A stretch of DNA of 49,385 bases, taken from Catajapyx aquilonaris. Taxonomy: Eukaryota. A model generated the notes under the pieces. The model searched no databases, was not told where the DNA came from, and was given only the letters and a program-made list of their open reading frames with translations. Shown here piece by piece: positions 3,041-49,385 of the stretch (its first letter is position 1; each line of letters starts with the position of its first letter). The translations under genes were made by a program, and so were the position numbers. The stretch lies in contig KZ538758.1 of assembly GCA_000934665.2 (NCBI GenBank), positions 1 through 49,385 on the forward strand, given 5' to 3'.

Positions 3041-3295
3041 CTTTGCACTTGCAGATGGGACACCCTTTGTCATTCCTAAGGTATCCATGAAGACAGGCTT
3101 TTCTGCATCCATTCAACCCTTTGCATTTGTTGCACTTGCACACCTCACAGCCATCTTTATTTTGTCTGTACCCATAGCTGCAGTTCTTTTGACAATTGGT
3201 GAGGGGCGGGCAGGTGAGAGGTGCTTTGCACCTACACAGGAAGCCGCCATTCTCATCTTCTTCATAGCCATACTCACAATGCAGATCACATTCCT
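3041..3295 (-). CDS. CRIM1: CRIM1-like exon: three antistasin-like repeats (EECDLHCEYGYEEDENG...CQKNCSYGYRQNKDGCEVCKC...CLHGYLRNDKGCPICKCK)
   Basis: Acceptor tttcccacag|, donor AAG|gtgagg, 255 nt, phase 1-1, open frame. Repeated C-x3-C-xx-G-Y-xx-N/D-xx-GC-xx-C-x-C pattern. Not shown in this frame by the ORF track. An in-frame alternative acceptor lies at 3331. Confidence 0.9.
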
Positions 3296-3647
3296 CTGTG
3301 GGAAATGCACAATAGGTGAAAGCAGTCCCTCCTGAGAGTGCATATTTTTTTACCTCAAGTTATAAACTTTTGAGATGTGGTAGTCTTGATTTGCAATTCC
3401 AAGCACAACCTATTCATTATTCTTTCAAGCATGATAAGCCCACTAACAATTAAACATTTTACAGCTTCATGAGTCCTACCATGTATATTTTATTCAGGGT
3501 TTACCACAGAATCTGACTAAACAATCATGATACATTTTACTTTGATTAGTACTTATTTCAGCAGTCATTCTCAGCTGGCATTTGTTAATTAATTATTATT
3601 CTGAAATTTTAATGACTGCAATTATTATTAAAAGCCATGGAAATATA

Positions 3648-3997
3648 CAGTGTGATCGAAAAAGAATGCACAGATTTTAAAACACTATAACTCGAAAACT
3701 TGTAGACATATCTAAATGATTCCAGTTTTGAAATGCTAACAAATGTCTTAAGTTTTGGACTCACCTTAGTTTGTTTCAATATTAGCTTCATTTTTCGGTT
3801 GGCAGGTAAGAAAAAAAAAACGGTTTTCGGTCTTGTTCCCAACCCATTCAATGATATCTATCTGGATTTACAGTTGCAATCCTATCCCATAGGTACTGGA
3901 TATTTCGTATCATTACACCACACACATTGTTCTTGATGATTCAAATAAAAAAAGTCGCCTAATTCGTGAAACAAACCTGACATTCTTGATCACCCTG
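3648..3997. mobile_element. Tc1/mariner-type MITE, about 350 bp
   Basis: TA-flanked, imperfect TIRs CAGTGTGATCGAAAAAGAATG and CAGGGTGATCAAGAATG. Confidence 0.6.
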
Positions 3998-4045
3998 TAT
4001 TCCAGCACTTGCTGTGATGTCATTTGCTCAGCAACGTTGGAGGTA

Positions 4046-4432
4046 CAGTACCGTTCATAAAGAATGGTACGACTATATGGACAAATGTTTATTCTGGTCC
4101 CAACCCCTGGGTCGCCAGCATGTTTTAGGGGTCATGAGGAAGTCCGGGAAAAGGGAATCAAAATAATATAAAAAAGAGAAGAGAAAAACAAAGCTAAGTA
4201 GGAGAATTTTAGGGGGGAAATTCACATCAAATCTACATAAGCATTGCACCGGGTTCAACATTTTGGTCATTAAAATTTTTATTTAAAAATCGGGATGGGT
4301 CATGCGAGTCACCAGAGGTCCAGAAAAGGTTGTCCATAGGGTTTTGTCGAATTAAAGTTGTGAATAATGCTTGATAATCAGGATAATCATTTCGTCTAGA
4401 TAGAGTCGTGCCATTCTTTATGAGCGGGACTG
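4046..4432. mobile_element. Tc1-like MITE, about 387 bp
   Basis: TIRs of about 33 bp, CAGTACCGTTCATAAAGAATGGTACGACTATAT and CAGTCCCGCTCATAAAGAATGGCACGACTCTAT. TA at the left end. Confidence 0.8.
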
Positions 4433-4884
4433 GTACATGCAAGAGCTTATTAGCTCTTGGTACATGTCATAAAAATTTGATAGATTTGCGTCCATTTATT
4501 TACTATATAATTATAAGAAAATTTTAGGGTTCGGTTATAAAAAAATAACCCTCTACTAGCAGGGTACCCACTCTTTGCACAGGTACATCAATTAAAAAAT
4601 TGAATGAATAGTACAGTAAATCATGCATTCCATCAGAGGTGATCTAGAGCTGCTGTGTATTGACAGGAGTGATAGATTCAAACATGTTTCACATGGGCAA
4701 GACCTGCAGTAGCCTGAATAAGGATGTGCATCAGCCAGTATTTCCATTATTGAAAAATATTATCAAAATGTGGCAAAATAATCTACTGTTAGGAAAAGAG
4801 AACAAACATGATCAGCAGTTACACTGTGCATAGTAATGGACAGTTAATGGTGTAAAGCAAGAGTAAAGCAAATAGTACATAGTG

Positions 4885-5096
4885 CAGTGGTTTCCAACCG
4901 GGGGGTCGCGGGGGGTCGCAAGCCTTTGTTCCACTTTTTGTTTTGTTTTGCAATTTCTGTGTAAATTGAACCATTTTTGCAGCCGTACAGAGTGTATGTT
5001 TTCTGGAAATGGGGCAGTTGTAGAAGGGGCAGGGGGGTCACACATTTATGGAACATGTTTTGGGGGTCGCAGTTGGTAAAAGGTTGGAAACCACTG
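4885..5096. mobile_element. hAT (Buster/Charlie-type) MITE, 212 bp
   Basis: Perfect 15-bp TIR CAGTGGTTTCCAACC / GGTTGGAAACCACTG, perfect 8-bp TSD ACATAGTG (NNNTANNN pattern), subterminal GGGGTCGC motifs. Confidence 0.92.
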
Positions 5097-5408
5097 ACAT
5101 AGTGTATAACCAAGTCCAACAGTAGACAGCTCCTAAGCAGGACATTCATGCTTCACACATTTCTTGCCTTACAGGCTTACTGGTTGGGTTCAGGAATTCA
5201 AGAACTCAAATAAAGTACAGAAAATGGTATTCATTACTACACTTTCCACATATGATAAAATTTACTGTGGTACCACATTGATGTAGCACACTGAAAACAT
5301 GGTACCGGTTCATGTTTGGTCCATAAAATAATGCTTACGTGTGAAATGTGATGCTAAAGTGTATATTATGCACAAACTATGTAGGAATACACTCTTTGAG
5401 TGAAAATA

Positions 5409-5486
5409 TTTTTTTTTTTGTAGAGGGTCGGCCAAGCGGCACGAGCCGCAGACCGACCCTGGAATAAATAAACGCCAACAACAACA
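5409..5486 (+). mobile_element. Short 3'-terminal retroposon (LINE/SINE) fragment with stem-loop and (CAA)n tail
   Basis: AGGGTCGG/CCGACCCT outer stem, GCGGC-ACGA-GCCGC inner hairpin, AATAAA and CAACAACAA tail. Flanked by an approximately 20-bp duplication ACACTCTTTGAGTG(T)AAAATA. Confidence 0.65.
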
Positions 5487-6459
5487 ACACTCTTTGAGTG
5501 TAAAAATACAAATCCAAGTGCATAACATGCATTAATGCATGTGTTGTGTGTTCACACATCCCAACAATGTTTTATTACACCTTTAGCACATAAATTTACA
5601 GCATTCTTGTCACATTACACAGGCAAGCACTTATACCCCAGATGTGAAAAATTACACAGACCAAATTATTCAGTGTAGTTACTTTGGGACAGGGATGCAG
5701 GATCCGTTTCTCAAAACCAATCAGGATTTTTTGTTTAAATTTTCACACACATGCGATGTGTGTGGGTATATATTCAAAAAAAGTTATCCCCAAGTGTAAG
5801 GCTCTACCTAAATACATTTCATTTGAAGTCTTTGGGGGAAGAACGATCAAGGTTCACCTCAGGTGAAACTGACATATTCAAATTTCAAATAATTTCGAAG
5901 GCCCATAAGGTTCAATATTGTAAATCCCACGTTTGGAGCCTTCCATAGAAACCTATGATCATTACTCCACAACCACGACCATACCACCATATTCTAGCCT
6001 ATACTAGTAGTAAAAATGCTACCTTCTGAGATAATGATGTATCTCATTTTTGACAAAAAGTGGCTCTGCTCCCGAGGTCTTCATTTGAGGGGTGTGGTGG
6101 GAAAACATGATAACCCACAAAAATGTAATTTTTCAGGAGAGCAAATTGAAGTTTGCACTTCCTTCACAAATCATAGGGATTGCGGGTTTCGATATCTAGT
6201 CCGTGTTGCCCTCTCATGCATGATATGTGAGCTTGGAGTATACCATACTGTTTGTCATGTCTTTTACATAGTTGATAGGTGTTTAGGTCAAAAATGACAA
6301 AAATAAGGATAATCACGTTTTTCCACCACACCTCTCATTTCATAACGCCTTTGCCTTTCAATAGCAATAGCCCATCTAAAAATTTTGTTCGCCAATTGCT
6401 GGTTACAGTACCTTTAAAATGCACCTCGCCCTTATTGACAGGGAGCCTAAGCTTTTTAA

Positions 6460-6595
6460 CCCTGTAATGCCCCTTGGGTCATATCTGGCACACCATTTAG
6501 AGCAATTTGGCACTTACAGGAAATATAAAAATGGCAAAAATTGCAAAAATTGCACTAAGGTGTGTGCCAAATATGACCCAGTGGGCATTACAGGG
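6460..6595. mobile_element. piggyBac-like MITE, 136 bp
   Basis: TIRs of about 33 bp, CCCTGTAATGCCC..TGGGTCATAT.TGGCACAC. Left flank is TTAA; the right flank is degenerate. Confidence 0.75.
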
Positions 6596-7838
6596 TCTTT
6601 CCTCGTCCACATGTAAGATGATTAGAGAGAAATGTTCCTTCCGCCCTCCCGCAGTAAGTTCCCTTTTGTGGACGCATGAAACTCGTCTCGGGCATATACC
6701 GTATGTAAAGCTGCTTTTTAAAACCCCTTCCATTTACATGACGTTTCGCAGAAAAGTGCAACGTTTAATAATCATATATCTACCGATATCTACGGTTTAA
6801 ATCTTCGAAGGCAGTGGAAACAGAGGGTTGTGGTTGCTCATCCCGTTCTCCCCATGATACAGGTGCTTTGGTCCTTAGGTCATCGGATCCCATATCCTTT
6901 CCACTGAAGTAAGGTAATTTATACGTCTATATGTTTCCATCAACAGACGTATAAATTACATTACTTTTCCGCCTATGCCTTCCACCTTCGCGCACCTTCG
7001 TATGCGATACTATCGTAGCAGTTATCTACCGTGTACAAGTAACACTCGACATACTCTAACAACCGTGAGTAACACCTGGTAACACTATTCAAAGCTCATG
7101 TGCAACTGCAGGCAGCTCTAGCTCTGCCTGATCTTCTTCAACTACCATGCCTACCTGCCTTCCCAATACCCGCCGGAACCCAGGGCTGTGTCCGCTCTGG
7201 CTCGGGGCGAAAACCCCGACGATTTGAACGTCAAGTGAGACGACTAATCTTGTTAGTTCCAAGGATCCGCGGTAGGTGTCGTGGGCGACACAGGCACAGT
7301 ACTGCTGTATCTGGGCAGGCAGGTTGCGATTGAAACCTGGCTGCATTTGCTTCGTAATCAAAATCCAAAAACTCACAACATAAGTTATTCTGAATAAATT
7401 TCGAAAGATTTTGAGGTCAAATTGCCGAGATACCGAACCTAAACACTCCACAGTAGGCTACTGCCAGAGTGTCACATACTGGTGGAAATTGGTCCATTAC
7501 TGGTCCAATAAGCACAGTTTTCTGCTTTCCATAAGCATATAATGCACACTACTTTATACTGATTAAGAAACTATACAGAAACGGGGAATTAGCCCACCCG
7601 TCAATTAGACAGGACCATAGTGGACAGAACAAAAAAAAAAACGTAATTTTCTTCTGCCGTCCCGTTATTGCCAAATATGCAAGAAAAATAATGATTTTGA
7701 CATTTTCGGCAAGTGTTACATCAGTGACAGGTGGCAAAAGCACCCAAGCTCCAGTGTGCAGTGCTTTCCTCGTGTGGGAAAGGAGGCTGGGTAATCAAAA
7801 TCAGCATATTTTTCTCACCGAGGGGTCAAGAAATGGTC

Positions 7839-7990
7839 TGTTATAGTTGAGCTGAGGTGAAAATGAGCCTGTTATATCAGGAGTAAAAATACACGTGGCC
7901 TTCTGGAAGTTTGACCCGCCTCTCGAGTCTGTTATAACCGAAAGTTCATTATAGCTGAGGGCCTGAGGCTGTTATATCCTGATTCAACTG
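7839..7990. mobile_element. One end of a pogo/Tigger-like DNA element remnant
   Basis: Repeated CTGTTATA subterminal motifs ending in GATTCAACTG-TA. Matching left end not identified. Confidence 0.45.
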
Positions 7991-8780
7991 TATTTGTATC
8001 GAATATTAAGAACTACCACCAATAAAATTATCGCGCCTCACAACAAAATCGATCATTTTAGTCCTCCATCTAGTATGGAAATAGCAATAAAGCACAGTAT
8101 ACGTTAGAATTTAGAAACAAACATGCATCCAATCTTTATTGTAATATAATGTGCTTAATCATTATCGTGGGCATACCAGAGAAATGAAATGAAAGTCCCA
8201 AAACCAGTTTCAAATAATAATCAAAGGCAAAGATTGATCTTGCACTTGTTTTCATGCTTGTGAATACAGAAAATCATATCTTTCTGGCTCATTATGAAGT
8301 ATTAGAACTCATACCATATACGCAGCCCCCCCCCCCCCNNNNNNNNGAGATCCCCCCCCCCCATGACGCTTTAAAATCCCATTTTTTCTTGTGTTCTCTC
8401 CTTCATCTTATTTAATTTAATTTAAAAATATATAAATATTGTAAGTTATGGCCGCCCTTCCGCAATTACCTTCTCTACCTGTAGTGGTAAATCAAGCCCT
8501 CAAAATTTTGATTTTCTTTGTGATCTCGTCTTTAGTTCCTATTATTGTATTTGAGAAATACCGTATTTATTGCAACTCGCGGCCGCTCCTATAGGCCAGT
8601 GCCTACTGTGCCTAATGGGAAATCCGGCGCTGATCATACAGTGTACCGTAAATTTTACGCTTTTGTGTTTCAGCTTTATGAATGATGAGCAAGAAAAGCT
8701 AAAATTCAATGCTGGTGCTCTGTACAATGCTTGACTTGAACTTCCCTCGTCCCATTTCTCAGAATTCAAGTAGTACTTGC

Positions 8781-8954
8781 CTTGATCACAGATGGGGCAG
8801 CATTCTCCTTCCACATGTCGTGGGTTCAGGCAGGTTGTTTTACACATCGACACTTGGCACTGGCGCTGGCCATCAACACAAGTGCATGTTGTGCAGGGGT
8901 CTTCTTGCCAGTAAGCAGAATTGTTATGCATTGCTCCTGACTGGGAGCGACAAC
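8781..8954 (-). CDS. CRIM1: CRIM1-like exon: VWC domain 2 (GCRSQSG...WQEDPCTTCTCVDGQRQC...CLNPRHVEGECCPICDQ)
   Basis: Acceptor gttgcag|, 174 nt, phase 1-1 if the donor is AAG|gcaagt (GC donor). It closely parallels CRIM1 VWC2 (W.EDDCT.C.CVNG.R.C...C.NP..V.GECCP.C). Confidence 0.9.
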
Positions 8955-9153: not shown

Positions 9154-9339
9154 CAACGCAAACTGGGCAGCATTCTCCTTCGGGAACTTGGATGACGCTA
9201 CAAGGGGGAAGTGGATGACACTTCGGCCCCTCGCAGAAGGCGAGCCCGTCGCGACACATGCACTGAGTGCACTTGTCTTTCTGCCATGTGGCGCCATTTG
9301 CGTACCTCTGGCCCTGTGCTTTGCAGTGCATTTCCTCAT
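9154..9339 (-). CDS. CRIM1: CRIM1-like exon: VWC (chordin-like CR) domain 1 (DEEMHC...WQKDKCTQCMC...PEGECCPVCV)
   Basis: Acceptor ttcccattcag|, donor TTG|gtaaga, 186 nt, phase 1-1. Canonical VWC motifs W..D.C..C.C and ECCP.C are present. Confidence 0.92.
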
Positions 9340-10621
9340 CTGAATGGGAAGATCGCATGTTACAACTAATATATTCCAACACCTGCATGAACAAATCTGC
9401 AACACTGGAAAACATCATCAGGTTAATATGATTGTGTTAAACACATTTAGGCCTACTATTGAATGTCTACATCAGAACCTCGTAAATTCATGCTGTTCGT
9501 AAAATAATCGTGTTCTTTCAAGGTACGACAGCACTACAGAAGCTACCACTAATTTTATTCTGGGTAACACCCCTGCAATGCCTTGAAAACATTTGATTGT
9601 TTTGCAAATAACACTACCGGTAGGCCTACTGCATACAGGCCTACTATTTAGCCGTGGTAAAATATACTGACCATTCCCGAAACCGACAAAGGAATTAAAT
9701 ATCCATGGTGCTATACACTGCCTCCAACAATTGGGAGAGGTAAAACTCACTCCATCAGCCACTTATGCGCACTCACTCCCACGTAGACAGCTAGACAGAT
9801 AATATACTAGAACATGAATGGGTAAGCTGTTATTATTTGTAAAATGGCTTGTCCTTATCCTCAGAGAATGTGTAAGCAAAAATCTAGGCGATTGAGGCAT
9901 AGCTGAGGCATTCTATTTAGAAATTAATTGAGGGAATTTTAGACGAGGAAAATCGTTCCAAAATGTTTTGCATGAAAGTGTAAGTATAGCTGAATTTATT
10001 GTTTGTAAAATATCTTGTCATTAGATCTTCAGAGTACATCTAAGTGAAAATCTAGGCGCTTCCAGTAGTACAGCTGGTAGCCAAGGGGTTACGTGGGACA
10101 AGTGCAGTACAATTTTCACATTTACTCTACATGATTGTATTCTCTTTTTTTCTAAAAACTTAAGGCATGCTGAACTCTGCGTAGTATTTATGAATCATTT
10201 CTTCAAGTGACATTGTCAACTGTATGACAACATCCTGACAATAGTGATTTATTTCCAGCATCTGCTTCACGTAGCCACGACACTGATTTCACGTCCGGAC
10301 TTTTTTGTGTACTCCAGAAAAGCGTTCAGGTCTTCTTATAATAAGAATTTCGCAATCTGACCATTTTAAAACGATAATTTCGCGAAACTGGTGGTTTGAA
10401 AAGAGGAATTTAGCGATCTGCCCATTTTGAAAAGAGTATTTCGCAAAATGCTCGGTTTTTTCACTCAATGGCTGTTTTCGGGAATTGTGCCTAACATACT
10501 ATGTATTAGGTCCCTACTTCCTGTCTCATATTGTGACATCCTTTTGGCAAGGCTTTCACTAATATCTTCTCAAACAGCAAGACAAATAAAATACAACTAA
10601 CAATAATATTATTATGTTTGC

Positions 10622-10889
10622 CCACCCGGGGTTCCCACCTTCTTTCGTGCAGAGTTGGGCCATCTCTGGCTTCGTTTCGGGTGGCAATTTCCGATAGACT
10701 AAGCCACCCGGGGGAGTTCACAAAATGACCAATTAACTACAGCGCACTTGCACTTTGCACATCCCCTCCTAATTACCCTTGGACCAATTAAGTATATCCA
10801 TGTACATCGCTCCAAACCCCAAATGGTGGTAATCCACCCCCCTAGAAATGACCTATCGGCCAGATAACGGGGTACAACAAAAAAAAAAA
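10622..10889 (+). mobile_element. 5'-truncated SINE sharing the core of the 17369-17746 SINE but with a different 3' tail and poly(A)
   Basis: Core TCGTGCAGAGTT..CTCTGGCTTCGT.TCGGGTGG..CCACCCGGGGGAGTTCAC..TGCACATCCCCTCCT aligns with the other copy. 12-bp TSD TATTATGTTTGC. Confidence 0.8.
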
Positions 10890-17368: not shown

Positions 17369-17746
17369 ACGTAATATAATTGTAATATAATTCTAATTCT
17401 AATTATAATAATGCTGGGGTAATGTGCTTTCGCCCCCACCTGGGGGCATATCGCACGGACCTTTATTTGATGAAGGTACATTTCGGCGCCTATTGATTGA
17501 AACGCCAGGGCCCACGGGCAGGATGACAGGAGGGGATGTGCAAGATGCAGTGCAATGCCCTTGTGTGGCCATTTTTAGTGAACTCCCCCGGGTGGTTTGT
17601 CTTAACGGAAATACCACCCGAGACGAAGCCAGAGGTGACCCTGAACTCTGCACGAGATGAAGGGAGTGTCCCCGGGTTGGGATCGAACCCGGGACCTTAA
17701 CATCCGTAGGCGCGTACGTTACCGCAGCCCCACTTCGCTTCCCTCA
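17369..17746 (-). mobile_element. Full-length tRNA-derived SINE (about 378 bp)
   Basis: tRNA-like head with B box GGGTTCGATCCC, a central core, a 3' stem-loop and an ATT-rich tail. Flanked by a perfect 14-bp TSD AGGAGATGCTTAAG (17355-17368, 17747-17760). Confidence 0.85.
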
Positions 17747-19015
17747 AGGAGATGCTTAAGTATGGGTACAGGTACACTTGTTGCTAAAAATGACAATCAC
17801 CGAAGTTCATTATCCAAAGAAAGAACTTTGTTTACAGGCTTAAAGCCCGAACACACAACTATCAGCAGTATAGGCATGTATTTTATCGGTTTTTAATATT
17901 AGTCTAAAATGTTTAATCTTCAGTAGCATCATTTCCACTCTGGAGCTCTAGCTTTTAGCTTTCACATTTTGTGTTAAACCGTACTGCCTGGTTTAAAACC
18001 CCGCTTAAACTCCGCTTGAAATCGGTCCGATTTAAAATCGACGGATTTTGGTCTGTATTCCGACCCGGTATAAACGCATCGATTCTGTGAAAGGCTGACA
18101 TCTAGGCTGATTTGTAGTCCTGCTAGCACGAGCCCGATTTTTTTTTATTCTGCTCGATACCAGTACCACCCGAGTATAAATTGGCAGAGTTTGCCACATA
18201 AACGCTCAAAGACGCGAGATAGCTCCAAGAGAGCTCGACGAGTTGCTGTCACGTAAGTGCTCTCTCTCTACATGCCATATTACCAGTCGTACCAGCACTG
18301 AGGTTAATGATAATATTAACTTCCATAATAGTTCATATTCAACTGACGTAATTACTGTTCCTCCCCTGGAGTGGGGCCATTCTCGCCAGAAATCCTGCTC
18401 TGGTGAAACGCGTGGCCTGAGCTTTTGCAGTTGGGGCCGAAATTAAATCTATGCCTTCAGTGAAAATGTACGGCAAGAACATGTAGACCTACAAGCTAGC
18501 ATATTTGAAGCTGTATAGAATAATGCCTCCGGATAAATAACACTATCATGCTAAGAAGTTTCATGTATTACAAAGAACATATTTTCCGCTCCTAAAATTG
18601 TAGGCAGGCATCGGAAAATGCGATTGTGTAACAGTGTTATATCGCAATTATCCTCTGTGCAGGCTTTACATCACTGTAGACTGAATGCCTCACCATATGT
18701 TCTACAGTGGGACGCTCACTCACCAGTAAAACAACAGTTGCAATGGGGCATATTTAAATGGGATTAAATTAGTACTTGTGTAAGCCCATAGCAATGATTC
18801 ACTGTACAGGAGTACACATCACTGTACAAAGCATTTAGCATGTGTCCAAATCGGGCAACCATGACGTGCAGTGCATAAGAAATATTGCCACCGCAGAACT
18901 TCCCCATGAATTATGACTCAAACCCATGCACAATAGATCCAAGCTCCCGGAACACATCACCCTCCGCCCATCCCTCGCCTCGATACCACCCTGAACAAGT
19001 GCCAAAGACCCCCTG

Positions 19016-19086
19016 TGCCTCTGCTGGGAATTGAACCCAGGTTCCACTCCGTAACAGAGCGTGTTCTGCCACTAAACTACAGAGGC
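19016..19086 (-). pseudogene. tRNA-like cloverleaf (SINE head or tRNA pseudogene), anticodon loop TGTTACG
   Basis: All four stems pair (GCCTCTG/CAGAGGC, GTTT/GAAC, CGCTC/GAGTG, CTGGG/CCCAG) and A/B boxes are present. It lacks U33, purine 37 and an oligo-T terminator. Confidence 0.6.
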
Positions 19087-20355
19087 TTTGCTGGGTCGGA
19101 CAAGCTGGGATGGTGCCACGGTCACACCTCTTCCCTCACATGGAACTAAACAGGAAGAACGAGGCCAAAGATGGACCACGTGTGTCGCACCCGATGCACT
19201 GACGCAATTAATTAGCACAAAAGTTTGTGTTCCGCACGAAGTGATCAAAATAATGGCCGACCGACAAACACTCGTCCCCATCCTTCAGGCATGAAACATG
19301 GGTGATGAGGCGTAGTCAAGTCCCCCTTTTACACAGCATGGCTTCCGTAAAACCCTCTTCCTCCCCACATCCCTCTACCCCCAACTCGTTCTTCAGAACT
19401 AATCCTGGGGCTTGTAATTAACGCCAGAGGGGCGAGGCTACACTTCACTCAGCGTCAAATTCATTTCACGGTTCGGCTTCAAATTTCCAAATAAATGCTA
19501 CAAGGAAAACTGCAAACATGGGAGGACGTTTAGGCTCACACTGGGGTCGAAACAGTGCATATATGACCTGTTTTCAGAAAAGTAGCAGCCTATTATTTGT
19601 GTCCAGTTGCAACACTATCGGTTGTTATAACATAACGGTAACGTACCGGCACCTCTCATCTGGGCGTCAACATTTAATACATGAGTTGTAAATAGCGTTT
19701 GAATGATGCCATACATAATATAAACAACGTATGGCTGTTAACTCTAAAGCTACTTACAAAGGGTTAAAAAACCTTTGATATCCGGATGAATGATTCCATA
19801 TGTGGAATTACAGTATGCGTTTCACGAGCTATATGCCTACATGTAACATGTGGGGCTCAGTACCTACATATCGTGTTGTTAGCTGTAGTCAGGAAAAGTT
19901 TCCGCCACTAAATGTATCATGGTGCTATACAGCACAGTCTGGAAAGGTGAAGTTTCATTCTTTCTTCTGAAGTGCTGATGGTTGTATAGCGCCAGGATAA
20001 TACGTACCAAACATTTTAAAACACACAGAATATTATACTGTTTTATGACACTTCATTAATATCAACATTATTTCGAAAATCATACATCGTTGCACATATT
20101 TTTCACGTAACTTATAAAGCTATGGTCATTCTATACAACTCTTGTGTACACAATAGTTCGCAGTGCAGCCCAATTCTTAGTTAATATTAATTTTGCTTTT
20201 GCTATTGGACTAAACTTGGAATCACCTGGGGCTAGCCTGCTTCATATTTTAGGCTGATTCCACAACACTAGTTACTCTCCATCAACCAGTAGGAAAACGT
20301 AAACTAATACAAAATTCCACATGGCTATATAGATTCCACAAAGTTTCAGACTCAC

Positions 20356-20583
20356 CTGGCACACACTCGTACACTGAGCAGCATATTCCAGGCTTTCCAC
20401 CCTGGGCCAGAACCCTGGGGTGAGAACCCGGAGAGCAATGCGGTGGGGGGCATGGGGTGGGCAGGCAACTACAGCCCTGGCTCACCGCACAGCAACCGCC
20501 CGCGGGCAGGACCCCGGGCAAACGGAAGCTGTCCGGAGGGCACGGAGGCTCCTCCTGGCAAATCACGCCACTGCAGTTGTGCT
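20356..20583 (-). CDS. CRIM1: CRIM1-like exon: Cys-rich repeat preceding VWC1 (EHNCSGVICQEEPPCPPDSF...GKPGICCSVYECVP)
   Basis: Acceptor ttgttgtttccag|, donor CCAG|gtgagt, 228 nt, phase 1-1. The Cys pattern CPPDS..GCC..C.C..C..GS.PR..G.PG.CC.V.ECV matches the repeat immediately before VWC1 in vertebrate CRIM1. Confidence 0.9.
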
Positions 20584-20918
20584 CTGGAAACAACAAAATA
20601 ATCAATTATTTCCGCCTCTTCGACTACCGTGTTCAACTGGTGTGATATCACCACCGTAATTTGTAACACTGCAGGTAACAGGCGTAACGTACAAACAGGC
20701 CAGAATATGTTCCTCACTCTGCTGTCTCAAAAGCGACGATTCACAGCGTGTTTCTGTTGTTCGTTTGACATCTGGATACACAGCCACAAGCACTTACAAG
20801 GTATCAAATGTAGTTGGTCACTTAACATTCAAAGAATCCTATACACACTTGAGGAAATCCCCCCGAAGGCAGCCTTCCCTAAGCCCTCGCTAACGTATGT
20901 GCACACCATTCCTGTTTC

Positions 20919-22898
20919 CTAAGGAATAAACATCCCCGTCGTCGCCGCTTGCCTGCGACTAACGGCCCCTCTCACAAATTCAAACACCCAGGCTAAACCC
21001 GCTGTTCCCAAGCCCGCGCACCAAACTAGAAAAACGCCCGCAATCTTCATCATGGTTAAAGGCGAGCGAATAACGTACTCCTCAGCAACGTCCTCTCTGG
21101 ACCGGAACAGTTTCAGCAAGAAGGAGGTGTGGTAATAATCCGACTCGTACTTGTCAGTCAGCTTGGATTCAAACACCCTCTGGACAAGGTCCCGGAAGGC
21201 CACGGCATACACGTCGCCTCGTCCGAAGATAGGGCTGGTGTAGAAGTCGAAGGCCTTGGCCTCAGAGGGCCAGAACAGCAATGAATGTCCTCGGCCATTC
21301 ACTATAGCGCTGGTCTCCTTTTTCAGGTAGAAGCTGACCCCGATGCAAGCCTGATGACCCTTGGGCACCCTCTCTCTGATGCACTCGCCTAGGTCAACGA
21401 CCACGATCTTGTCGAGTATCTCCTGGTACAGGGACATCTGAGCGGATTCGGACATTTTTCTGAATATCAGGTAATCCACCAGAGGCATTCCTAGACTATA
21501 CCCGGATTGGTGCAGTTCACGGAACGATCCAGGGAGAATCTCGACAGCAGGAGATGTGAGAAATGCAGCCAACTTGGTCTTGTACCCACAGACCACAACC
21601 GTGGCAAAGATGGCGTAAAATGCGGCGAAGAGGCGCACCGCAGACAACGGAGGCACGGATATGGGCTGTTCCATTAGCTCCCTTACGACGTACCGAAACG
21701 AGATATAAAACGGCATCGATGGTTCATCCGAGACTCGCCGTTCCGCCTCCGACACGGAATATATGGCCAGGGCGGAGAATATTAAGCTGAGCAGCAGCAC
21801 GAACCACATTATGCCTGTGTAAGGCTGGAATATAACTTCCCATTTGGCCAGAGTGCTTGGTTCTTTCGTCACGAAGCTGAAATGGACGAAAAAGTAGGGC
21901 TGAGTCTTGAACACGTACTGGGAGGAGACCTGGTCCAGAAAGGACACGGTGCAAAATCCGGCTTGGCTTCTCAATATTTCCCCGACCATTCCCATCCACG
22001 TTCCGTTTGGCTGTCGAAAATCCGCCCCCACATTTACGTAGTCCGGGCGATAAACCTCTAACGTCGCATTTAGGGCTTCCTCAAACAGCAGTAAAATGCT
22101 CTCTTCCGCTGTCAAAAAATGCTGGCCGAGGTGACGCCTCCGTTCTTTGGCCGCCATCAAATCCAAGCCTTTCAGATGAGCCACGCGCATCCGACGTCCG
22201 TTCAGGCGTCCTGAGGTGTCCCAGCACTTCCGGTACGCCTCCTCGACCTCGGTCTCTTGAAAGGTGCCGTTGAAATGCCCTAAAGGCGACAACACATGGT
22301 TGCCACGGTTGCAGAAAAAACAGACTGTGGACACTCTTAATGCGACGTCTTCCATCCATGTTACCATCTTCAGCCGGATTTCGCCAACAGGAGGTCGTAC
22401 AGGAGAGTGCTTCGAGGCTGAAGAGTACAAATGTATCAAAAAGCGGTCATCCAGGTTGCGCATTTTCACCCGATGAGCCGTGTATATCAAAAGCTGCGAC
22501 ACTGATTTGTTGGCCAGGATCACATGAAAGGTGCAAGAGCTTCCGGGCCAAAACGTGGACAGAGCTTCAGGTGGTATGTTACGAAACGTCATCAGCTGAT
22601 CCTCACTAGTTAGTTCCGTGTATTTGGTCCACACCAGGGGGAAGTCGGTCATCATGATGGAGACGGATGGCCTGTACCTGGCAGCCGCCCAGGAGTACAA
22701 ACGCTGCATAGGACGTCTATCCTGAAATTTGTCAGACGCTACCACCAGGGAGCAAGGCGTTTGCTCAGACGCCATCAGCTGTTGCGCCAGGTCAGCAACC
22801 AACGTGTCCTCCAAAGTGTCACCTCTGATTGACACTGCATGGCTCACTCCACTAAAGGCCAGCACCAACCCCATCAAAGTTCCAAACCTTTCGGCCAT
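20919..22898 (-). CDS. Intronless divergent ionotropic receptor (IR, variant iGluR chemoreceptor family), 659 aa, nested in CRIM1 intron 1
   Basis: Single 1980-nt ORF from gacATGG (the ORF track starts at an upstream TTG). It has a signal peptide, S1 (PNGTWMGMVGEI, TQPY), TM1 (WEVIFQPY..WFVLLLSLIF), pore (RELMEQ), TM2 ending GYKTKLAAFLTSP (SYTANLAAFLT equivalent), S2 and a final TM (PLTMMKIAGVFLVW...FEF). Confidence 0.92.
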   Translation of the reverse strand: MAERFGTLMGLVLAFSGVSHAVSIRGDTLEDTLVADLAQQLMASEQTPCSLVVASDKFQDRRPMQRLYSWAAARYRPSVSIMMTDFPLVWTKYTELTSEDQLMTFRNIPPEALSTFWPGSSCTFHVILANKSVSQLLIYTAHRVKMRNLDDRFLIHLYSSASKHSPVRPPVGEIRLKMVTWMEDVALRVSTVCFFCNRGNHVLSPLGHFNGTFQETEVEEAYRKCWDTSGRLNGRRMRVAHLKGLDLMAAKERRRHLGQHFLTAEESILLLFEEALNATLEVYRPDYVNVGADFRQPNGTWMGMVGEILRSQAGFCTVSFLDQVSSQYVFKTQPYFFVHFSFVTKEPSTLAKWEVIFQPYTGIMWFVLLLSLIFSALAIYSVSEAERRVSDEPSMPFYISFRYVVRELMEQPISVPPLSAVRLFAAFYAIFATVVVCGYKTKLAAFLTSPAVEILPGSFRELHQSGYSLGMPLVDYLIFRKMSESAQMSLYQEILDKIVVVDLGECIRERVPKGHQACIGVSFYLKKETSAIVNGRGHSLLFWPSEAKAFDFYTSPIFGRGDVYAVAFRDLVQRVFESKLTDKYESDYYHTSFLLKLFRSREDVAEEYVIRSPLTMMKIAGVFLVWCAGLGTAGLAWVFEFVRGAVSRRQAATTGMFIP

Positions 22899-22911
22899 GT
22901 CTCCCCGCCCC

Positions 22912-22948
22912 AACTGCCATGCCCTTGCCAGATCTTCGACCTTTTATA
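22912..22948 (-). promoter_or_regulatory. TATA box and Inr-like element of the IR gene
   Basis: TATAAAAG at 22948-22941. GCAGTT (Inr-like) has its A at 22915, 33 nt after the first T of the TATA box and 17 nt before the ATG. Confidence 0.6.
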
Positions 22949-25900
22949 TCCACGGATGCGGACTGCATGGTAACACCTCATTTTATCTGACACATGGTCA
23001 CGGCTTCTTCATTCGATCGCCCCTTGCACGAAACCCCAAGTGGACAAAACAAAAACCAGGCATCCGGGCTTCCTCCTTGGAGGTGGCGTCTTGAGGAGGT
23101 CCAGGTCGATCGGTTCAATACCGGCAGTGTCACGGAAACTGCTTCATTTATCACGCCCAGTAAATTGAGGAAACGGTCTGTATATATACAGCAAGAGATT
23201 CGAAAGCTACGAGCCGCGGCTCCCTTTCCGAAGCCATAAAACTGGTAGTCATTACCCGCTTATTACGGCCCCCCTTATAGCCTTCCATTGTGAGGCACGA
23301 TGACAGCCAAATAAACACCCTTTTAAACGCGCATAGAACGAATCTTGGAGGGGGCAGGCTCAAATTACAGTTGTTTGCTGGATAGGAAACCCACAATTTC
23401 TTGATGAGCGAACACATAGGCCAACATCCGGCGGCCATTGGCTGCTGCTGCCTTTGTTGGTGGAAAATTCGCCTGGCATCTCTGCAACTTGCCCGGTTTC
23501 ATATCCACTGAGGGCCAGCCTTTCTGCCTGGAATAACCTTCATGCCAGGCACGTTCCACTGTTTGCTCACACAGAATGACTTAACCTGGCACAAAAACTC
23601 GAGGAGTCGGAGCTACTCTACCGTGTGACGTACAGCACAACACAACACGCCGAGGTCCATGTACTGTACAATGTTACCAATGGTCTGTGCCCAATTGGAG
23701 CCCAAGTATGGAGATTTTGGTCTATTTTCGTGTCAGGAGCATTCGTTTCGGGGTGTTCTGTTTCGTCACACTCGGGCTTTGCTCAAGAATAGAAACTGAA
23801 CAAAACCGCAATGCATTTCCAACCCAAATTATACTCGCTGCAAGAGGTACATTTTAATGTGTGTGTTGCCAGAGTGCAAACTTATGTCGCCATGGGTTAT
23901 GGAAAAAACCGAGTATCAACAGCGTTATATAATAATTCACAGCAGGGTTTACCACATGCTCGTCATTTAAATATTGCACAGGTTACAACACCCCCCCCCC
24001 CCCAATGTGATTCCACTTATATCACTGTTTTACAAATTGTAGCATGTAGGCCCAGTACATAATTTTCCACTCACAAAAATGCGTTCATATTTTAACAGAG
24101 CTTTGCTTGTAGCTTACCCTCGCGAAGCACTACTTTAAATTGCAAAACAGTGAACTGCTGTCGCCACCACACACGGCTCACATGCACACTGTGCGGCAGA
24201 ACCCACACCGACAGCCATATTTGGGCACAAATTGGGCACAATTGTCAGAATGGGTGCGGCTGGCCACACGAACCTCTCAATCTACACAGACGACTAAGCG
24301 TTGTTTGAAGGAACGCACGCTTCATAAATAAGTCATTTATTCTCATGTTTTTTGTGACTTTTTGTTGAGCTGGTACTCTCCAAGTGGCAGCGCAGTATGC
24401 ATTATTGTTCCACTTTCCTCCGTAATTATAATCATTAGCCTTATTAGACTTCAAAAGCTACGCCCAGTCTTGTATGGCTGCGCTTTTAGAATTAGCTTTT
24501 ATTATGCACTAAAAACATGTATAAACCTCCCTGTCTGCACTATTTATTATTCAGCCTGTACTTTCACATTTAGCCTTTACACGGATTTGATAGCCGTCGT
24601 TAAAAGCGCCCCACCTATGAAAACTTCAATTTACGACTTGATCACTCGTGTAATATAAATCCCGCGCTGCCAGCCATGCCAATAACGGCGCCGCAGATGC
24701 CGCACCGCCCCGTGCGTGCCCGCCCGTCAGCGCATGAATCCCTCTATCGGGCAACCAAGGAATGAATCAGTCCAATCAGAAAGAGAGAATAATTCAAATA
24801 ATTGCTTCTTATTGGATGAAAACATTTTCAGTCTCCAGATGGAAACGCAATGCACCACTTGAATGCGCTGGACGGTGGGGGGACATTATAGGACACCTCC
24901 TGTTTCTTATCCGCGCTTTGACACCGAAAGCCGACTTCTTTGGCTCGTTAAAATTTCACAGCATCACCCTCGCTGGCCACTTGGCTTTTGTAATCGGACA
25001 CCCACCGGATGCTTGTCTCAGGCCGGTAACGTTGTAACTACACACTGTACGCGCGTTGGGAAGGGGGGTTCTTTTCGATGTTTTTTGAAGGGCAATCACG
25101 TGACCGGGACAACCGTTGGTGTTCGGGTCGACGTGGACGGCGTGCTTCAAAATGTAACCGAATCGCACTTAGCTGGGATGTATAGCGTTGTCCAGGCACG
25201 GTCTGAGGGAGCCCAAAAACCGTATTTACATAGTACGAGGCTGATTTTTTAACACCTCCTGCAGGTTGTATATCAAGGGAAATTAGCTGAAATATTATCC
25301 AAGGTTGGAGAATTTATCCATATTTTGGTGCAGAACATCAGCCAAAATTAGGCGCAACATTCATTTGCTCGCCCACGATTGTCTCCCTCGTATACCATCA
25401 CGTAGTGTAAAAGAACGTGCATTGTTGGCTCAAAAAATGTGCGAAATCAGCTATGCTAATTGCCATATTTAGAGAGATCGTGACAATTTTCCAGCTACAA
25501 TTCTACTCTAGCATAAAAAGTGCCCCCCCCCCCCTTGAATGAAGCCAACAATCAGGAACAAAAAATCCTGAAAAAGACTTTAATGAGAGCCCACCCATNN
25601 NNNNNNNNNNNNNNNNNNNNNNNNNNNNNNNNNNNNNNNNNNNNNNNNNNNNNNCCCCCCCCCCCCTATACATATACCTTATGCGAGAAAACGTAAAATT
25701 TGTATCTCTATTAAAAGTGATAAATTGGTCTTGCCCAAGTGCAAGACGCGCCTCGTAAATTGGAATTTATTTCTGTATATGCCCTTCCTCTTGACTCGTA
25801 TTAACTGAGGGCTTCCGCGGCTGCGGGAATGAAAATGTCTTGAACTCTGCAGATATTTTTAACAACCTGGCGCTATTTTTACGGGTACACAAGTGGGGCA

Positions 25901-33600: not shown

Positions 33601-34373
33601 CTTTGTGTGCCACCATCTTGTATTTGCACTGTTCCACAAAATGGCACCTTTCGAATCCGGAAAACGCGCCTTGTTTTTCCCCTAGGGCTTGCCTATATAT
33701 GCCTATCTTTACGGCCTGCGCTCAGGTGAAAATGAGGGCTGTTGAGAAGCCCGGAAACATGAATAATAAAGAACGGTTTCATTGTGCGGCCGCTTCATTA
33801 CGCGATCTTGCGTCAACACACAAAAGCCCGCGGACGCTTTTCTCTCGGGGATATGTCGCGCCGGATTATACACTGTTATTGAGCTAACTGGCCCGGATTT
33901 TTTGTTATTTTTTAGAGCCCAGAAATTTTTTGGGGTCTGAATCTTCTTTCCGTATTCGCTTCAATTAGCTGGGACCAAAATCACGAGGCCAACACTTCCA
34001 ATTATGAAACACAATGGCGCTTTATCGCGCGCCTCACGTGTATGGTATGCCACGGGCATGGGGGGAAAAAACGGAGCAAATATTTATTCAAGTCTTAAGG
34101 ACCTTAAACTCGGAACTTTGCTTGCTTGATAAAATATTTTGCTGGTGAATGTCAAGAGGGTTTGTGCACACATTCTGTTGGCTGCCATGCGATTGTGCGT
34201 TCTTTGTTTGCTACTCCGAATTTGGCTAATTAAATTAACACATACTTGCCCATACCTGACGCCTACGCTATGTCACTGTACTGCAACAAATGTCAAACTT
34301 ATTTTTAGTCAGGATTTCCGTGGTATAGGCCTATCACCAGGTCGACTGGCAGTAGCTTCATGCAGAACCAATG

Positions 34374-34443
34374 TGCCTCCGCCGAGAATCGAACCCGGGT
34401 CCACGCTCTGAGAGCATGTGTTCTGCCACTGAACTACAAAGGC
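34374..34443 (-). pseudogene. Second related tRNA-like cloverleaf, anticodon loop TCTCAGA
   Basis: GCCTTTG TA GTTC AGTGGCA GAAC A CATGC TCTCAGA GCGTG GAC CCGGG TTCGATT CTCGG CGGAGGC A. Homologous to 19016-19086, with C33 and a 3-nt variable loop. Confidence 0.6.
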
Positions 34444-44502: not shown

Positions 44503-44578
44503 CTGCTTCGGCGCACACCAACACTCCGAACACGAGGACCACCAGTGACCACCTGAACATGATTGGGCTTCGTCCCAT
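44503..44578 (-). CDS. CRIM1: CRIM1-like gene, coding part of putative exon 1 (signal peptide MGRSPIMFRWSLVVLVFGVLVCAEA)
   Basis: In-frame ATGs at 44578 and 44560, a hydrophobic core and an A-E-A cleavage motif. It ends at a strong phase-1 donor GCAG|gtgagc, compatible with the phase-1 acceptor at 20583, and sits downstream of an Inr+DPE promoter. Linkage to the downstream exons is inferred. Confidence 0.7.
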
Positions 44579-44691: not shown

Positions 44692-44731
44692 GGTCTTCCC
44701 ACAGGAACCTCTGGCGCTCGACTGAGACTGA
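44692..44731 (-). promoter_or_regulatory. Inr + DPE core promoter, predicted TSS about 44723
   Basis: Two tandem TCAGTC motifs (Drosophila-type Inr TCAKTY). With A+1 at 44723, AGACC (DPE consensus RGWYV) falls exactly at +28..+32 and G at +24. No TATA box seen, and the surroundings are GC/CpG-rich. Confidence 0.65.
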
Positions 44732-48973: not shown

Positions 48974-49385
48974 TGTGGTGGAATCCGGATCCTGACCCGG
49001 ATTCTCAGCCAGCTCGTCTAGACCGCTGATCCTCAACCAGGATGTACTGTACCCTTCAACCGGAGCGTTAGCGCCCCCCCCCCCACCCCCATTTTCTGTA
49101 TTTAAGCAGCACCTGAAAATAAACACCGGCCAGTCTTCCTTCAGCTCTGACTTTGATTACAACACGCTAAACTGGTGACCCCGCCGTTCATCACGCAGCG
49201 TCATGGAAGAGCCTACCGCGGTTGCCACTGTCTCGATCAAGATCCCGCCGTTCTGGCCGGCTGACCCTGAGCTGTGGTTTGCACAAGGGGAAGCGCAATT
49301 TTCCACTCGCTCCGTGACCTCCCAGAAGACCAAGTTCGACCACGTCACGGCCTGCCTGGCCCCAGAAGTCGCGACGGAGGTTCGA
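48974..49385 (+). mobile_element. 5' end of a Ty3/Gypsy LTR retrotransposon: LTR (about 48974-49170), PBS and gag start, truncated by the window edge
   Basis: Putative LTR starts TGTGG and contains TATTTAA and AATAAA. The PBS TGGTGACCCCG at 49173 is complementary to the tRNA-Trp 3' end, as in CsRn1/Kabuki-type elements. LTR limits are approximate. Confidence 0.8.
49203..49385 (+). CDS. gag: Gypsy gag N-terminus, partial ([48 protein letters not shown]...)
   Basis: Characteristic [26 protein letters not shown] motif, 30 nt after the PBS start, open to the window end. Confidence 0.85.

What the first reader, a model, noticed from the sequence alone, without database searches (positions are those of the whole stretch)
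20584..22948. Intact intronless ionotropic receptor nested on the same strand inside CRIM1 intron 1, ending 335 nt before the host acceptor
Seen: a 659-aa IR ORF with its own TATA/Inr lies between the putative signal-peptide exon (44503) and the next CRIM1 exon (20583), on the same strand. By eye I found no AATAAA or ATTAAA in the 335 nt between its stop and the host acceptor, while a GTAAGT donor-like motif lies at about 20797-20792. Established: nested genes are more often antisense, and divergent IRs are often intronless and thought to spread by retroposition. Inference: the IR transcript may overlap or splice into CRIM1 exons, giving a bicistronic or chimeric RNA, or IR polyadenylation may truncate CRIM1 pre-mRNA. 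Either would couple a chemoreceptor to a BMP modulator in sensory neurons.
Basis: partly seen in the sequence, partly recalled or inferred. Interest (0 to 1): 0.7.

Follow-up and report, generated by a model that had tools for sequence, protein, structure and literature searches.

The report
Chemoreceptor gene nested inside CRIM1 intron
A complete, intron-free smell/taste-type ion-channel receptor gene sits on the same strand inside a large intron of the BMP-regulator gene CRIM1; this is a real but ordinary gene-within-a-gene layout, and nothing yet shows that the two genes share an RNA.

Summary
A 659-codon ORF lies at 20919-22898 on the minus strand. It is a divergent ionotropic receptor (IR): Pfam Lig_chan, iGluR fold, own signal peptide, ligand-binding arginine replaced. 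It lies 335 nt upstream of a CRIM1 exon (20583-20356) on the same strand. That exon has no start codon or signal peptide, so a host coding exon must lie beyond the IR, and the IR is nested.

"Intron 1" is less sure. The signal-peptide exon at 44560-44503 is the only good candidate and joins in frame. However, all insect CRIM1s found have a further cysteine module before this exon, and that module is nowhere in the window.

The coupling inference is not supported by what could be tested:
- A missing AATAAA/ATTAAA in 335 nt is what chance gives (expected 0.27).
- About 42% of fly cleavage sites lack both hexamers.
- A variant AATAAT lies 22 nt before the acceptor.
- A chimeric RNA could not make a secreted CRIM1.

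No RNA data could be obtained. Same-strand nested genes are mostly single-exon in Drosophila, and this scan has already noted several same-strand nested intronless genes elsewhere in this genome. Verdict: ordinary nested pair, low interest.

The parts
20919..22898 (-). Single-exon coding sequence of a divergent ionotropic receptor (659 aa plus stop). It has a signal peptide, a short N-terminal domain, the S1 lobe, M1 (~361-379), a pore helix (~397-408), M3 (~418-447), the S2 lobe and M4 (~614-639).
22911..22948 (-). Putative IR core promoter: TATAAAAG at 22948-22941 and the Inr-like GCAGTT at 22916-22911 (A at 22915), 17 nt before the ATG.
   Evidence: Read. Motif match only; no transcript-start data.
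20584..20918 (-). 335-nt interval between the IR stop and the host acceptor; presumed IR 3' UTR. It holds no AATAAA/ATTAAA, and one of 18 listed variants (AATAAT at 20610-20605). That variant is followed by a T/GT-rich tract which is also the host's polypyrimidine tract.
   Evidence: variant list from PMC5874996
20792..20797 (-). Donor-like TTG|GTAAGT, 121 nt after the IR stop and 214 nt before the host acceptor.
   Evidence: 1 seen; 0.07-0.14 expected by chance
20356..20583 (-). CRIM1 exon encoding one 'CPPDS...GCC...CC..YEC' cysteine module. It is phase 1-1 and has no Met.
44503..44560 (-). Candidate CRIM1 first coding exon: signal peptide MFRWSLVVLVFGVLVCAEA plus 1 nt, donor CAG|GTGAGC. Two TCAGTC Inr-like motifs lie at 44731-44720.
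   Evidence: It is the only phase-1 candidate of 330 with a signal-peptide-like core, a good donor and a sense junction codon. Predicted only.
9154..9339 (-). CRIM1 exon, VWC domain 1 (phase 1-1).
8781..8954 (-). CRIM1 exon, VWC domain 2 (phase 1-1), with an apparent GC donor AAG|GCAAGT.
3041..3295 (-). CRIM1 exon, three antistasin-like repeats (phase 1-1).

Best explanation
This is an ordinary same-strand host/nested gene pair. A divergent, single-exon ionotropic receptor gene of the arthropod chemosensory IR type lies inside a 5' intron of a CRIM1 orthologue. That intron is at least 24 kb long.

Shown:
- The IR is full length, with its own signal peptide.
- It has the iGluR ligand-binding and channel fold, and has lost the arginine that holds the amino-acid ligand in glutamate receptors.
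- The host exon just downstream cannot start translation, so the host's 5' coding exon lies beyond the IR.

Inferred:
- The IR is transcribed from its own TATA/Inr promoter in a few sensory cells.
- Its mRNA ends at a weak, non-canonical poly(A) site in or just after the 335-nt interval. The best candidate is AAUAAU at 20610-20605 with the U/GU-rich tract behind it.
- In CRIM1-expressing cells the whole IR unit is removed as intron.
- Being intron-free and lacking strong poly(A) hexamers on the sense strand, the IR interferes little with host splicing.
- No functional link between the two proteins is implied.
For: IR identity and completeness:
- Pfam Lig_chan is above its cut-off.
- phmmer found 898 proteins at E<=1e-3; the best is 26% identical.
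- Homologues of 647-673 aa align almost end to end.
- The AlphaFold model has pLDDT 81 and pTM 0.71.
- Foldseek matches GluD2 and GluA2 at E 1e-21. The LBD-TMD chain 7qhb_B gives TM 0.72.
- The arginine of the GluN1 '...NNERAQY...' stretch aligns to Ser in the query. The majority residue of the 40-sequence alignment at the matching place is R.

Nesting:
- CRIM1 exons on the same strand lie at 20583-20356, 9339-9154, 8954-8781 and 3295-3041, all phase 1.
- Exon 20583 has no Met.
- No signal-peptide-like first exon fits in the gap.
- The only good upstream candidate is 44560-44503.

3' end:
- The canonical hexamer count in the gap is 0 against 0.27 expected.
- The rest of the intron carries 25 sense AATAAA/ATTAAA against 19 expected from composition, so the host must ignore such sites anyway.
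- In Drosophila, 47.76% of cleavage sites carry AAUAAA, 10.3% carry AUUAAA, and 22.48% carry none of 13 motifs. The characteristic 3' UTR length is 200 nt (PMC1574307, passages and Table 1).
- AAUAAU is on an 18-signal list compiled for a mammalian study (PMC5874996, passage).

Layout: 72.53% of same-strand nested genes in D. melanogaster are single-exon (PMC3814207, passages).
Against: - No transcript evidence of any kind could be obtained, so the promoter, the 3' end and expression are all inferred from motifs.
- Only a weak variant signal lies before the host acceptor. A crude estimate from the fly numbers (my inference) leaves about one chance in three that IR transcripts run past the acceptor.
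- A consensus-like donor (TTG|GTAAGT) sits in the presumed 3' UTR, 0.07-0.14 expected by chance. It is followed 214 nt later by the strongest acceptor in the locus (75% pyrimidines).
- The host's first exon is predicted only. The N-terminal module present in all 21 inspected insect orthologues is missing from the window.
- No orthologue of the IR was found, so purifying selection could not be measured.
Confidence: 0.62

Rival explanations
1. Read-through or chimeric RNA. IR transcripts fail to terminate in the 335-nt interval. They either run through CRIM1 exon 20583-20356 or splice from the GTAAGT at 20797 onto the host acceptor at 20583 and then follow the CRIM1 splicing pattern. The resulting IR mRNA would have CRIM1 exons as its 3' UTR.
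For: - There is no AATAAA/ATTAAA between the stop and the acceptor. The first listed variants after the acceptor begin with AATAAT at 20072 and CATAAA at 20047; the first ATTAAA is at 19678.
- The gap holds a donor-like TTG|GTAAGT.
- The acceptor at 20583 has a strong pyrimidine tract.
- Earlier notes of this scan report other same-strand nested genes of this genome that share RNA with their hosts (unchecked by me).
Against: - The missing hexamer and the single GTAAGT are within chance.
- 42% of fly sites lack both canonical hexamers.
- The IR stop would lie 121 nt upstream of an exon junction, which by established knowledge of nonsense-mediated decay marks an mRNA for degradation.
- The CRIM1 frame in such an RNA starts without a Met in exon 20583 and without a signal peptide. 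No secreted CRIM1 could be made, so 'bicistronic coupling' has no product.
- There are no RNA data.
Confidence: 0.22
2. The IR is nested, but not in intron 1. The true CRIM1 5' exons (signal peptide plus an N-terminal module or IGFBP-like domain) lie upstream of the window (>49385) or in an assembly gap. The 44560-44503 'signal-peptide exon' would then be a chance look-alike.
For: - All 21 insect CRIM1 N-termini inspected have signal peptide + module 1 + module 2. The millipede and tick proteins have an IGFBP-like stretch before the module.
- The window exon is of the module-2 type (47% identity against 36% to the cockroach modules).
- No module-1 or IGFBP-like exon is found in the window.
- My signal-peptide screen has a background of about 1 hit per 400 candidates: 1 of 507 on the plus strand, 0 of 375 and one locus of 399 in the other minus-strand phases. 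So 0.5-1 false hit among 330 candidates is expected.
- The intron holds N runs of 56 and 4 bases.
Against: - The candidate exon is of high quality: a 12-residue hydrophobic core, an Ala-x-Ala end, a donor matching 8 of 9 consensus positions, and the right phase with a sense junction codon.
- Two TCAGTC Inr-like motifs lie ~165 nt upstream.
- In insects the signal peptide is followed directly by an 'NCS...CPPDS' module start, as it would be here.
- All exons are phase 1-1, so loss of one module keeps the frame.
Confidence: 0.3
3. The IR is an unexpressed or recently dead copy (a retrocopy that landed in the intron) and has no function or effect on the host.
For: - It is intron-free and has weak 3' signals.
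- No RNA holder was listed.
- No orthologue is available to test constraint.
Against: - The 659-codon frame has no defect and GC3 is 0.64 against GC2 0.415.
- All channel elements are present.
- The nearest known protein is only 26% identical, and no look-alike was found in the other scanned windows. This argues for long independent survival of an open frame.
- There is no poly(A) remnant or target-site duplication, so it is not a fresh retrocopy.
Confidence: 0.08

Closest known systems
Same-strand, single-exon nested genes in introns of Drosophila melanogaster genes (Lee & Chang 2013, PMC3814207; abstract and passages read)
   Same: A complete gene lies inside a host intron on the host's strand and is intron-free. 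That paper reports this for 72.53% of same-strand nested genes and explains it by selection against mis-splicing.
   Different: Here the nested gene ends only 335 nt before the host acceptor and has no canonical poly(A) hexamer. Host splicing across it has not been shown.
Divergent (single-exon) ionotropic receptors of insects (Croset et al. 2010, PMC2924276; passages read) and the intronless IR clade of Ixodes ticks (PMC11752866; passages read)
   Same: It has the iGluR-derived S1-channel-S2 architecture, a short N-terminus, no introns, a divergent ligand-binding pocket and rapid sequence divergence.
   Different: The nearest proteins are only ~25% identical; the named ones are from springtails. 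No retroposition hallmarks are left. No tandem paralogue lies in the window.
CRIM1 / crm-1 family of BMP-binding transmembrane proteins (insect 'cysteine-rich motor neuron 1 protein', names given by sources)
   Same: The order of modules is the same: cysteine module, VWC, VWC, antistasin repeats. Exon identities to insect proteins are mostly 41-57%, lower for a few VWC1 matches.
   Different: No IGFBP domain and no first cysteine module are found in the window. The first antistasin repeat was not found either. The 3' part of the gene lies outside the window.
Cholinergic locus type
   Same: A same-strand intron-free gene lies in a 5' intron of a host.
   Different: The IR has its own signal peptide and TATA/Inr. 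The two in-frame AGs just upstream of its ATG have purine-rich tracts of 30-35% pyrimidines. A fusion would put two signal peptides in tandem. No sign of exon sharing was seen.

Membership tests
Ionotropic glutamate receptor superfamily (iGluR) | Ligand-gated ion channel domain (Pfam PF00060 Lig_chan) | tested here: met
   E 2.8e-8, 34.1 bits against a cut-off of 30.8, residues 364-630.
Ionotropic glutamate receptor superfamily (iGluR) | Bilobed ligand-binding domain interrupted by the M1-pore-M3 channel, plus M4 | tested here: met
   The AlphaFold model has pLDDT 81. Foldseek matches GluD2 and GluA2 at E 1e-21, and the LBD-TMD chain 7qhb_B at TM 0.72. Hydrophobic segments lie at 361-379, 418-447 and 614-639. 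The M3 stretch '...GYKTKLAAFLT' aligns to '...SYTANLAAFL' of GluN1.
Divergent / 'tuning' IR (variant iGluR, chemosensory) | Loss of one or more of the glutamate-contacting residues, above all the S1 arginine | tested here: met
   The Arg of the GluN1 'NNERAQY' stretch aligns to Ser of the query 'DQVSSQY' with high posterior there. The majority residue of 40 homologues at the matching place is R. That this Arg is the ligand contact is recalled, not from a call.
Divergent / 'tuning' IR (variant iGluR, chemosensory) | No full-size amino-terminal domain (unlike iGluRs and IR25a/IR8a) | tested here: inconclusive
   The protein is 659 aa, with about 230-270 residues before the matched S1 part. Foldseek alignments to full-length receptors span ~750-800 columns, so a reduced N-terminal domain may be present.
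Divergent / 'tuning' IR (variant iGluR, chemosensory) | Expression in chemosensory neurons with a co-receptor | not testable with these tools
   No RNA run could be listed.
CRIM1 | VWC repeats with antistasin-like repeats between them | tested here: met
   VWC E 1.4e-10 and 5.4e-10; Antistasin E 2.2e-21 with 3 stretches.
CRIM1 | N-terminal IGFBP-like domain | tested here: not met
   No such exon is in the window. None of the insect proteins listed carries PF00219 either, so this feature does not define the arthropod members.
CRIM1 | C-terminal VWC repeats, transmembrane segment and cytoplasmic tail | not tested
   They lie beyond position 1 of the window.
Same-strand host/nested gene pair | Nested gene wholly inside one host intron, same strand | tested here: met
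   The downstream host exon is certain. An upstream coding exon is required because exon 20583 has no Met or signal peptide. Its position at 44560-44503 is predicted.
Same-strand host/nested gene pair | Independent transcript of the nested gene, and host spliced across it | not testable with these tools
   No RNA data and no genome held.
Retrogene | Poly(A) remnant and target-site duplication | tested here: not met
   No A run follows the ORF. No flanking direct repeat of 11 nt or more brackets the gene. The intron-free state alone does not show retroposition of this copy.
Bicistronic or chimeric host-nested mRNA | RNA molecules joining both genes, with a translatable second cistron | tested here: inconclusive
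   RNA is not testable. The sequence shows that the CRIM1 frame downstream of the IR has no Met in its first exon and no signal peptide, so a functional second cistron is unlikely.

The most novel reading that the evidence does not exclude
The IR's only poly(A)-type signal (AAUAAU, 20610-20605) and its U/GU-rich downstream tract are physically the same ~40 nt as the polypyrimidine tract and 3' splice site of the host exon. Cleavage/polyadenylation of IR transcripts and splicing of CRIM1 would then compete for one element. The choice would depend on which promoter fired and on U1 binding at the GTAAGT 190 nt upstream. In sensory cells some IR RNA would be spliced onto CRIM1 exons and degraded, giving a built-in brake on receptor level.
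Probability: 0.1. Interest if true: 0.45.

Novelty: new member of a known kind. Interest (0 to 1): 0.2.

Why it matters
The finding matters mainly for annotation:
- Gene finders tend to miss intron-free IRs inside introns, or to fuse them to the host.
- This CRIM1 model may lack an N-terminal module that all 21 inspected insect orthologues have.

If the IR's 3' end really overlaps the host's 3' splice site, the locus would be a compact natural case for studying competition between polyadenylation and splicing in same-strand nested genes. No present evidence points to a biological link between chemoreception and BMP modulation.

Tried and rejected
- RNA evidence: no RNA holder was listed for 20300-23300.
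- Own genome: not held, so paralogues, typical poly(A) signals of this species and synteny could not be examined.
- Word-indexed protein search with the IR: no hit at E<=1e-3 among 8000 candidates. The full HMMER search then found distant relatives only.
- Metagenome contigs with the IR: 51 pattern matches, none a relative.
- Metagenome contigs with CRIM1 exon 20583: one weak locus, L001 (46% over 34 residues). It holds a CRIM1-like half module and no IR, and was not informative.
- Retrogene hallmarks: none found.
- Other genes in 22949-44502: 74 ORFs of 85 aa or more from the whole window, plus the 69-aa frame at the window's end, were scanned against Pfam. I left out of the 95 listed the CRIM1 and IR frames and the frames overlapping them. 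Nothing above a curated cut-off was found in the interval.
  - There are three ATG frames of 26, 33 and 14 codons.
  - One (20909-20849) has a phase-1 GT but no hydrophobic core.
  - The frame from 20828 to the GTAAGT would give a TAG at the junction.
- Exon sharing with the host, a lead from earlier notes:
  - Of five AGs between 22943 and 22899, two would be in frame with a phase-1 donor. Both have 30-35% pyrimidine tracts (positions read).
  - A better acceptor at 23179/23178 runs into a stop before the IR ATG (read).
  - Rejected as unsupported.
- Module-1 or IGFBP exon upstream:
  - An HMM of 24 N-termini found only exon 20583 (E 1.4e-12; next best 0.71).
  - tblastn with 13 N-termini found nothing else credible.
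- Earlier notes of the scan: none near this place, none like the IR sequence, none on CRIM1 in this genome.
Full report
**Observation.**
- The minus strand carries one ATG-to-stop ORF of 659 codons at 20919-22898.
  - The stop-free run is 674 codons. In 200 shuffles of 20301-23300 the longest run was 234 (mean 136).
  - GC at the three codon positions is 0.527/0.415/0.639, the pattern of a coding frame.
- From the sequence:
  - TATAAAAG lies at 22948-22941.
  - CAGTT lies with its A at 22915, 17 nt before the ATG.
  - The stop TAG is at 20921-20919, and 335 nt follow to the acceptor TTGTTGTTTCCAG|AG (exon from 20583).
  - TTG|GTAAGT has its GT at 20797-20796.
- No AATAAA or ATTAAA lies in the 335 nt.

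**What the ORF is.**
- Pfam gives Lig_chan above its cut-off (E 2.8e-8; residues 364-630).
- A word-indexed search found nothing.
- HMMER against 1.84 billion representatives found 898 proteins at E<=1e-3, 124 at <=1e-10 and 2 at <=1e-30. The best is 26% identical.
- Ten of these were looked up. Five carry names, all from springtails (four Orchesella dallaii, one Allacma fusca), described as ionotropic glutamate receptor domain proteins. The other five are unnamed metagenome or run-assembly proteins.
- The language-model atlas puts the protein among arthropod IR/iGluR clusters, score 0.98.
- Homologues of 647-673 aa align from about residue 180-270 to 630-650, and two fragments align from residue 11, so the single exon holds the whole protein.
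- An AlphaFold model from a 40-sequence alignment has pLDDT 81 and pTM 0.71.
- Foldseek matches GluD2, GluA2, GluK2 and NMDA receptor chains at E about 1e-21 to 1e-18. An LBD-TMD-only chain (7qhb_B) gives TM 0.72 and rmsd 5.9 over 441 columns.
- Hydropathy gives a signal peptide, M1, M3 and M4.
- In the HMMER alignment to GluN1, the M3 stretch is kept. The arginine of 'NNERAQY' aligns to serine. By my recollection this is the residue that binds the ligand's carboxylate. Most of the 40 homologues keep R at that place.
- The gene is therefore a divergent, 'tuning'-type IR and not a glutamate receptor.
- It has no paralogue in the window and no look-alike in other windows of the scan.

**The host.**
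- On the same strand Pfam finds VWC at 9339-9154 and at 8954-8781, and three antistasin repeats at 3295-3041.
- A search with the antistasin exon found one cockroach protein. A search with that protein found 65 proteins at E<=1e-20, most of the named ones called cysteine-rich motor neuron 1 protein.
- tblastn of 62 of them onto the window places exon 20583-20356 at residues ~90-200 of the insect proteins (41-55% identity) and confirms the order of the other exons.
- All four exons are phase 1-1.
- Exon 20583 encodes no methionine, and its frame closes 22 nt upstream of the acceptor. It cannot be a first coding exon.

**Is the IR nested, and in intron 1?**
  - The gap has three ATG frames of 26, 33 and 14 codons, none with a hydrophobic core.
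  - The frame that ends at the GTAAGT would give TAG at the junction.
  - Hence the host's upstream coding exon lies beyond the IR, and the IR is nested.
- Among 330 phase-1 ATG...GT candidates on the minus strand between 20584 and 49385, three passed a crude signal-peptide-plus-donor filter.
  - Two share the donor at 44503 (ATG 44560 or 44578).
  - The third gives a TAG junction.
  - Controls gave 1 of 507 (plus strand), 0 of 375 and one locus of 399 (other phases).
  - So the exon at 44560-44503 is the only good candidate, but the filter alone would yield 0.5-1 false hit.
  - Its quality is high: MFRWSLVVLVFGVLVCAEA, CAG|GTGAGC, junction codon GAG, and two TCAGTC motifs ~165 nt upstream.
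- Against 'intron 1':
  - All 21 insect N-termini inspected have a further ~70-residue cysteine module between the signal peptide and the module that matches exon 20583. The millipede and tick proteins have an IGFBP-like stretch instead.
  - The window exon is of the second-module type (47% identity to cockroach module 2, 36% to module 1).
  - Neither an HMM of 24 N-termini (only exon 20583, E 1.4e-12; next 0.71) nor tblastn with 13 further N-termini finds such an exon in the window.
- Either this lineage lost the module, which keeps the frame because all exons are phase 1-1, or more 5' exons lie beyond 49385 or in the 56-N gap at 25599-25654.
- I put about 0.6 on intron 1 as drawn, 0.3 on another 5' intron, and the rest on neither.

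**The coupling inference.** No RNA evidence could be had, so only sequence arguments remain.
1. The missing hexamer is what chance gives. The expected number of AATAAA+ATTAAA is 0.27 in the gap and 0.74 in the whole 2365-nt IR unit. The rest of the intron carries 25 on the sense strand (19 expected), which the host must ignore anyway.
2. In Drosophila only 47.76% + 10.3% of mapped cleavage sites have AAUAAA or AUUAAA. 22.48% have none of 13 motifs, and 3' UTR lengths follow an exponential with characteristic length 200 nt (PMC1574307, passages and Table 1).
3. One of 18 compiled signal variants is present: AATAAT at 20610-20605 (list in PMC5874996, one passage). It is followed by TGATTATTTTGTTGTTTCCAG and then GTGGCGTGATTTG inside the exon. 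This is a plausible weak site whose downstream element is the host's own pyrimidine tract.
4. One GTAAGT in 335 nt is expected 0.07-0.14 times. That is suggestive, not significant.
5. If IR RNA did splice 20798>20583, the IR stop would lie 121 nt before a junction. By established knowledge that is the arrangement which triggers nonsense-mediated decay. The CRIM1 frame would lack both a Met in its first exon and the signal peptide, so no working second protein would be made.

A rough Bayesian estimate from the fly figures (my inference) gives about two chances in three that IR mRNAs end inside the gap.

**Comparison with what is known.**
- In D. melanogaster 71.27% of nested genes are on the opposite strand. 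Of the same-strand ones 72.53% are single-exon, which the authors explain by selection against mis-splicing (PMC3814207, abstract and passages).
- Divergent IRs are mostly single-exon and are attributed to retroposition followed by local duplication (PMC2924276, passages). In Ixodes ricinus 65 of 90 full-length IRs are intronless (PMC11752866, passages).
- This copy shows no poly(A) remnant or target-site duplication, so how it arrived is unknown.
- Earlier notes of this scan describe several other same-strand nested intron-free genes in the same genome, some said to be spliced onto the host's first exon (unchecked notes).
  - I tested that idea here. The two in-frame AGs before the IR ATG have 30-35% pyrimidine tracts against 50-75% for the four CRIM1 acceptors.
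  - The IR also has its own signal peptide, so exon sharing is unsupported.
- A search of the paper library for an IR 'nested within an intron' gave one unrelated paper. That single search does not show the arrangement is unreported.

**Verdict.**
- 'Intron 1' is plausible but unproven.
- The chimeric/bicistronic coupling is an untested possibility, with sequence arguments mostly against any function.
- This is a new instance of two known things: a divergent single-exon IR, and a same-strand single-exon nested gene.

Noticed in passing
window 8779-8790 (minus): The second VWC exon of CRIM1 appears to end at a GC donor, AAG|GCAAGT. No in-phase GT donor follows before the frame leaves the homology.
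   Followed up: partly
window 20583-44502 and orthologue N-termini: This CRIM1 seems to lack the first 'CPPDS...CC..YEC' module that all 21 inspected insect orthologues have. It also lacks the IGFBP-like domain of the millipede and tick proteins. Either this is a lineage-specific domain loss, or 5' exons lie outside the window.
   Followed up: partly
window 3296-8780 (minus); N run 8339-8346: The first antistasin repeat of the cockroach protein (about residues 292-330) has no match between the VWC2 and antistasin exons. It may be lost, too diverged, or hidden in the 8-N gap.
   Followed up: no
window 19015-19086 (-) and 34373-34443 (-): Two tRNA-like sequences lie in CRIM1 introns. Rfam scores them as tRNA at 51.5 and 46.8 bits; ARAGORN calls them Asn-GTT and 'SeC-TCA'. 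The surrounding frames look alike, which suggests heads of tRNA-derived SINEs and not tRNA genes.
   Followed up: no
window 49179-49385 (+): An open frame running off the window end matches DUF7041 (E 6.2e-18). By recall this domain is seen in gag-like proteins of arthropod retroelements. It lies upstream of the putative CRIM1 start, on the opposite strand.
   Followed up: no
window 17399-17743 (-) and 10506-10736 (-): The frames share the peptide 'HPGEFTK' / 'SPGW', which points to copies of one dispersed repeat in CRIM1 introns.
   Followed up: no
window 44720-44731 (minus): A tandem pair of TCAGTC initiator-like motifs lies about 165 nt upstream of the candidate CRIM1 start codon.
   Followed up: no
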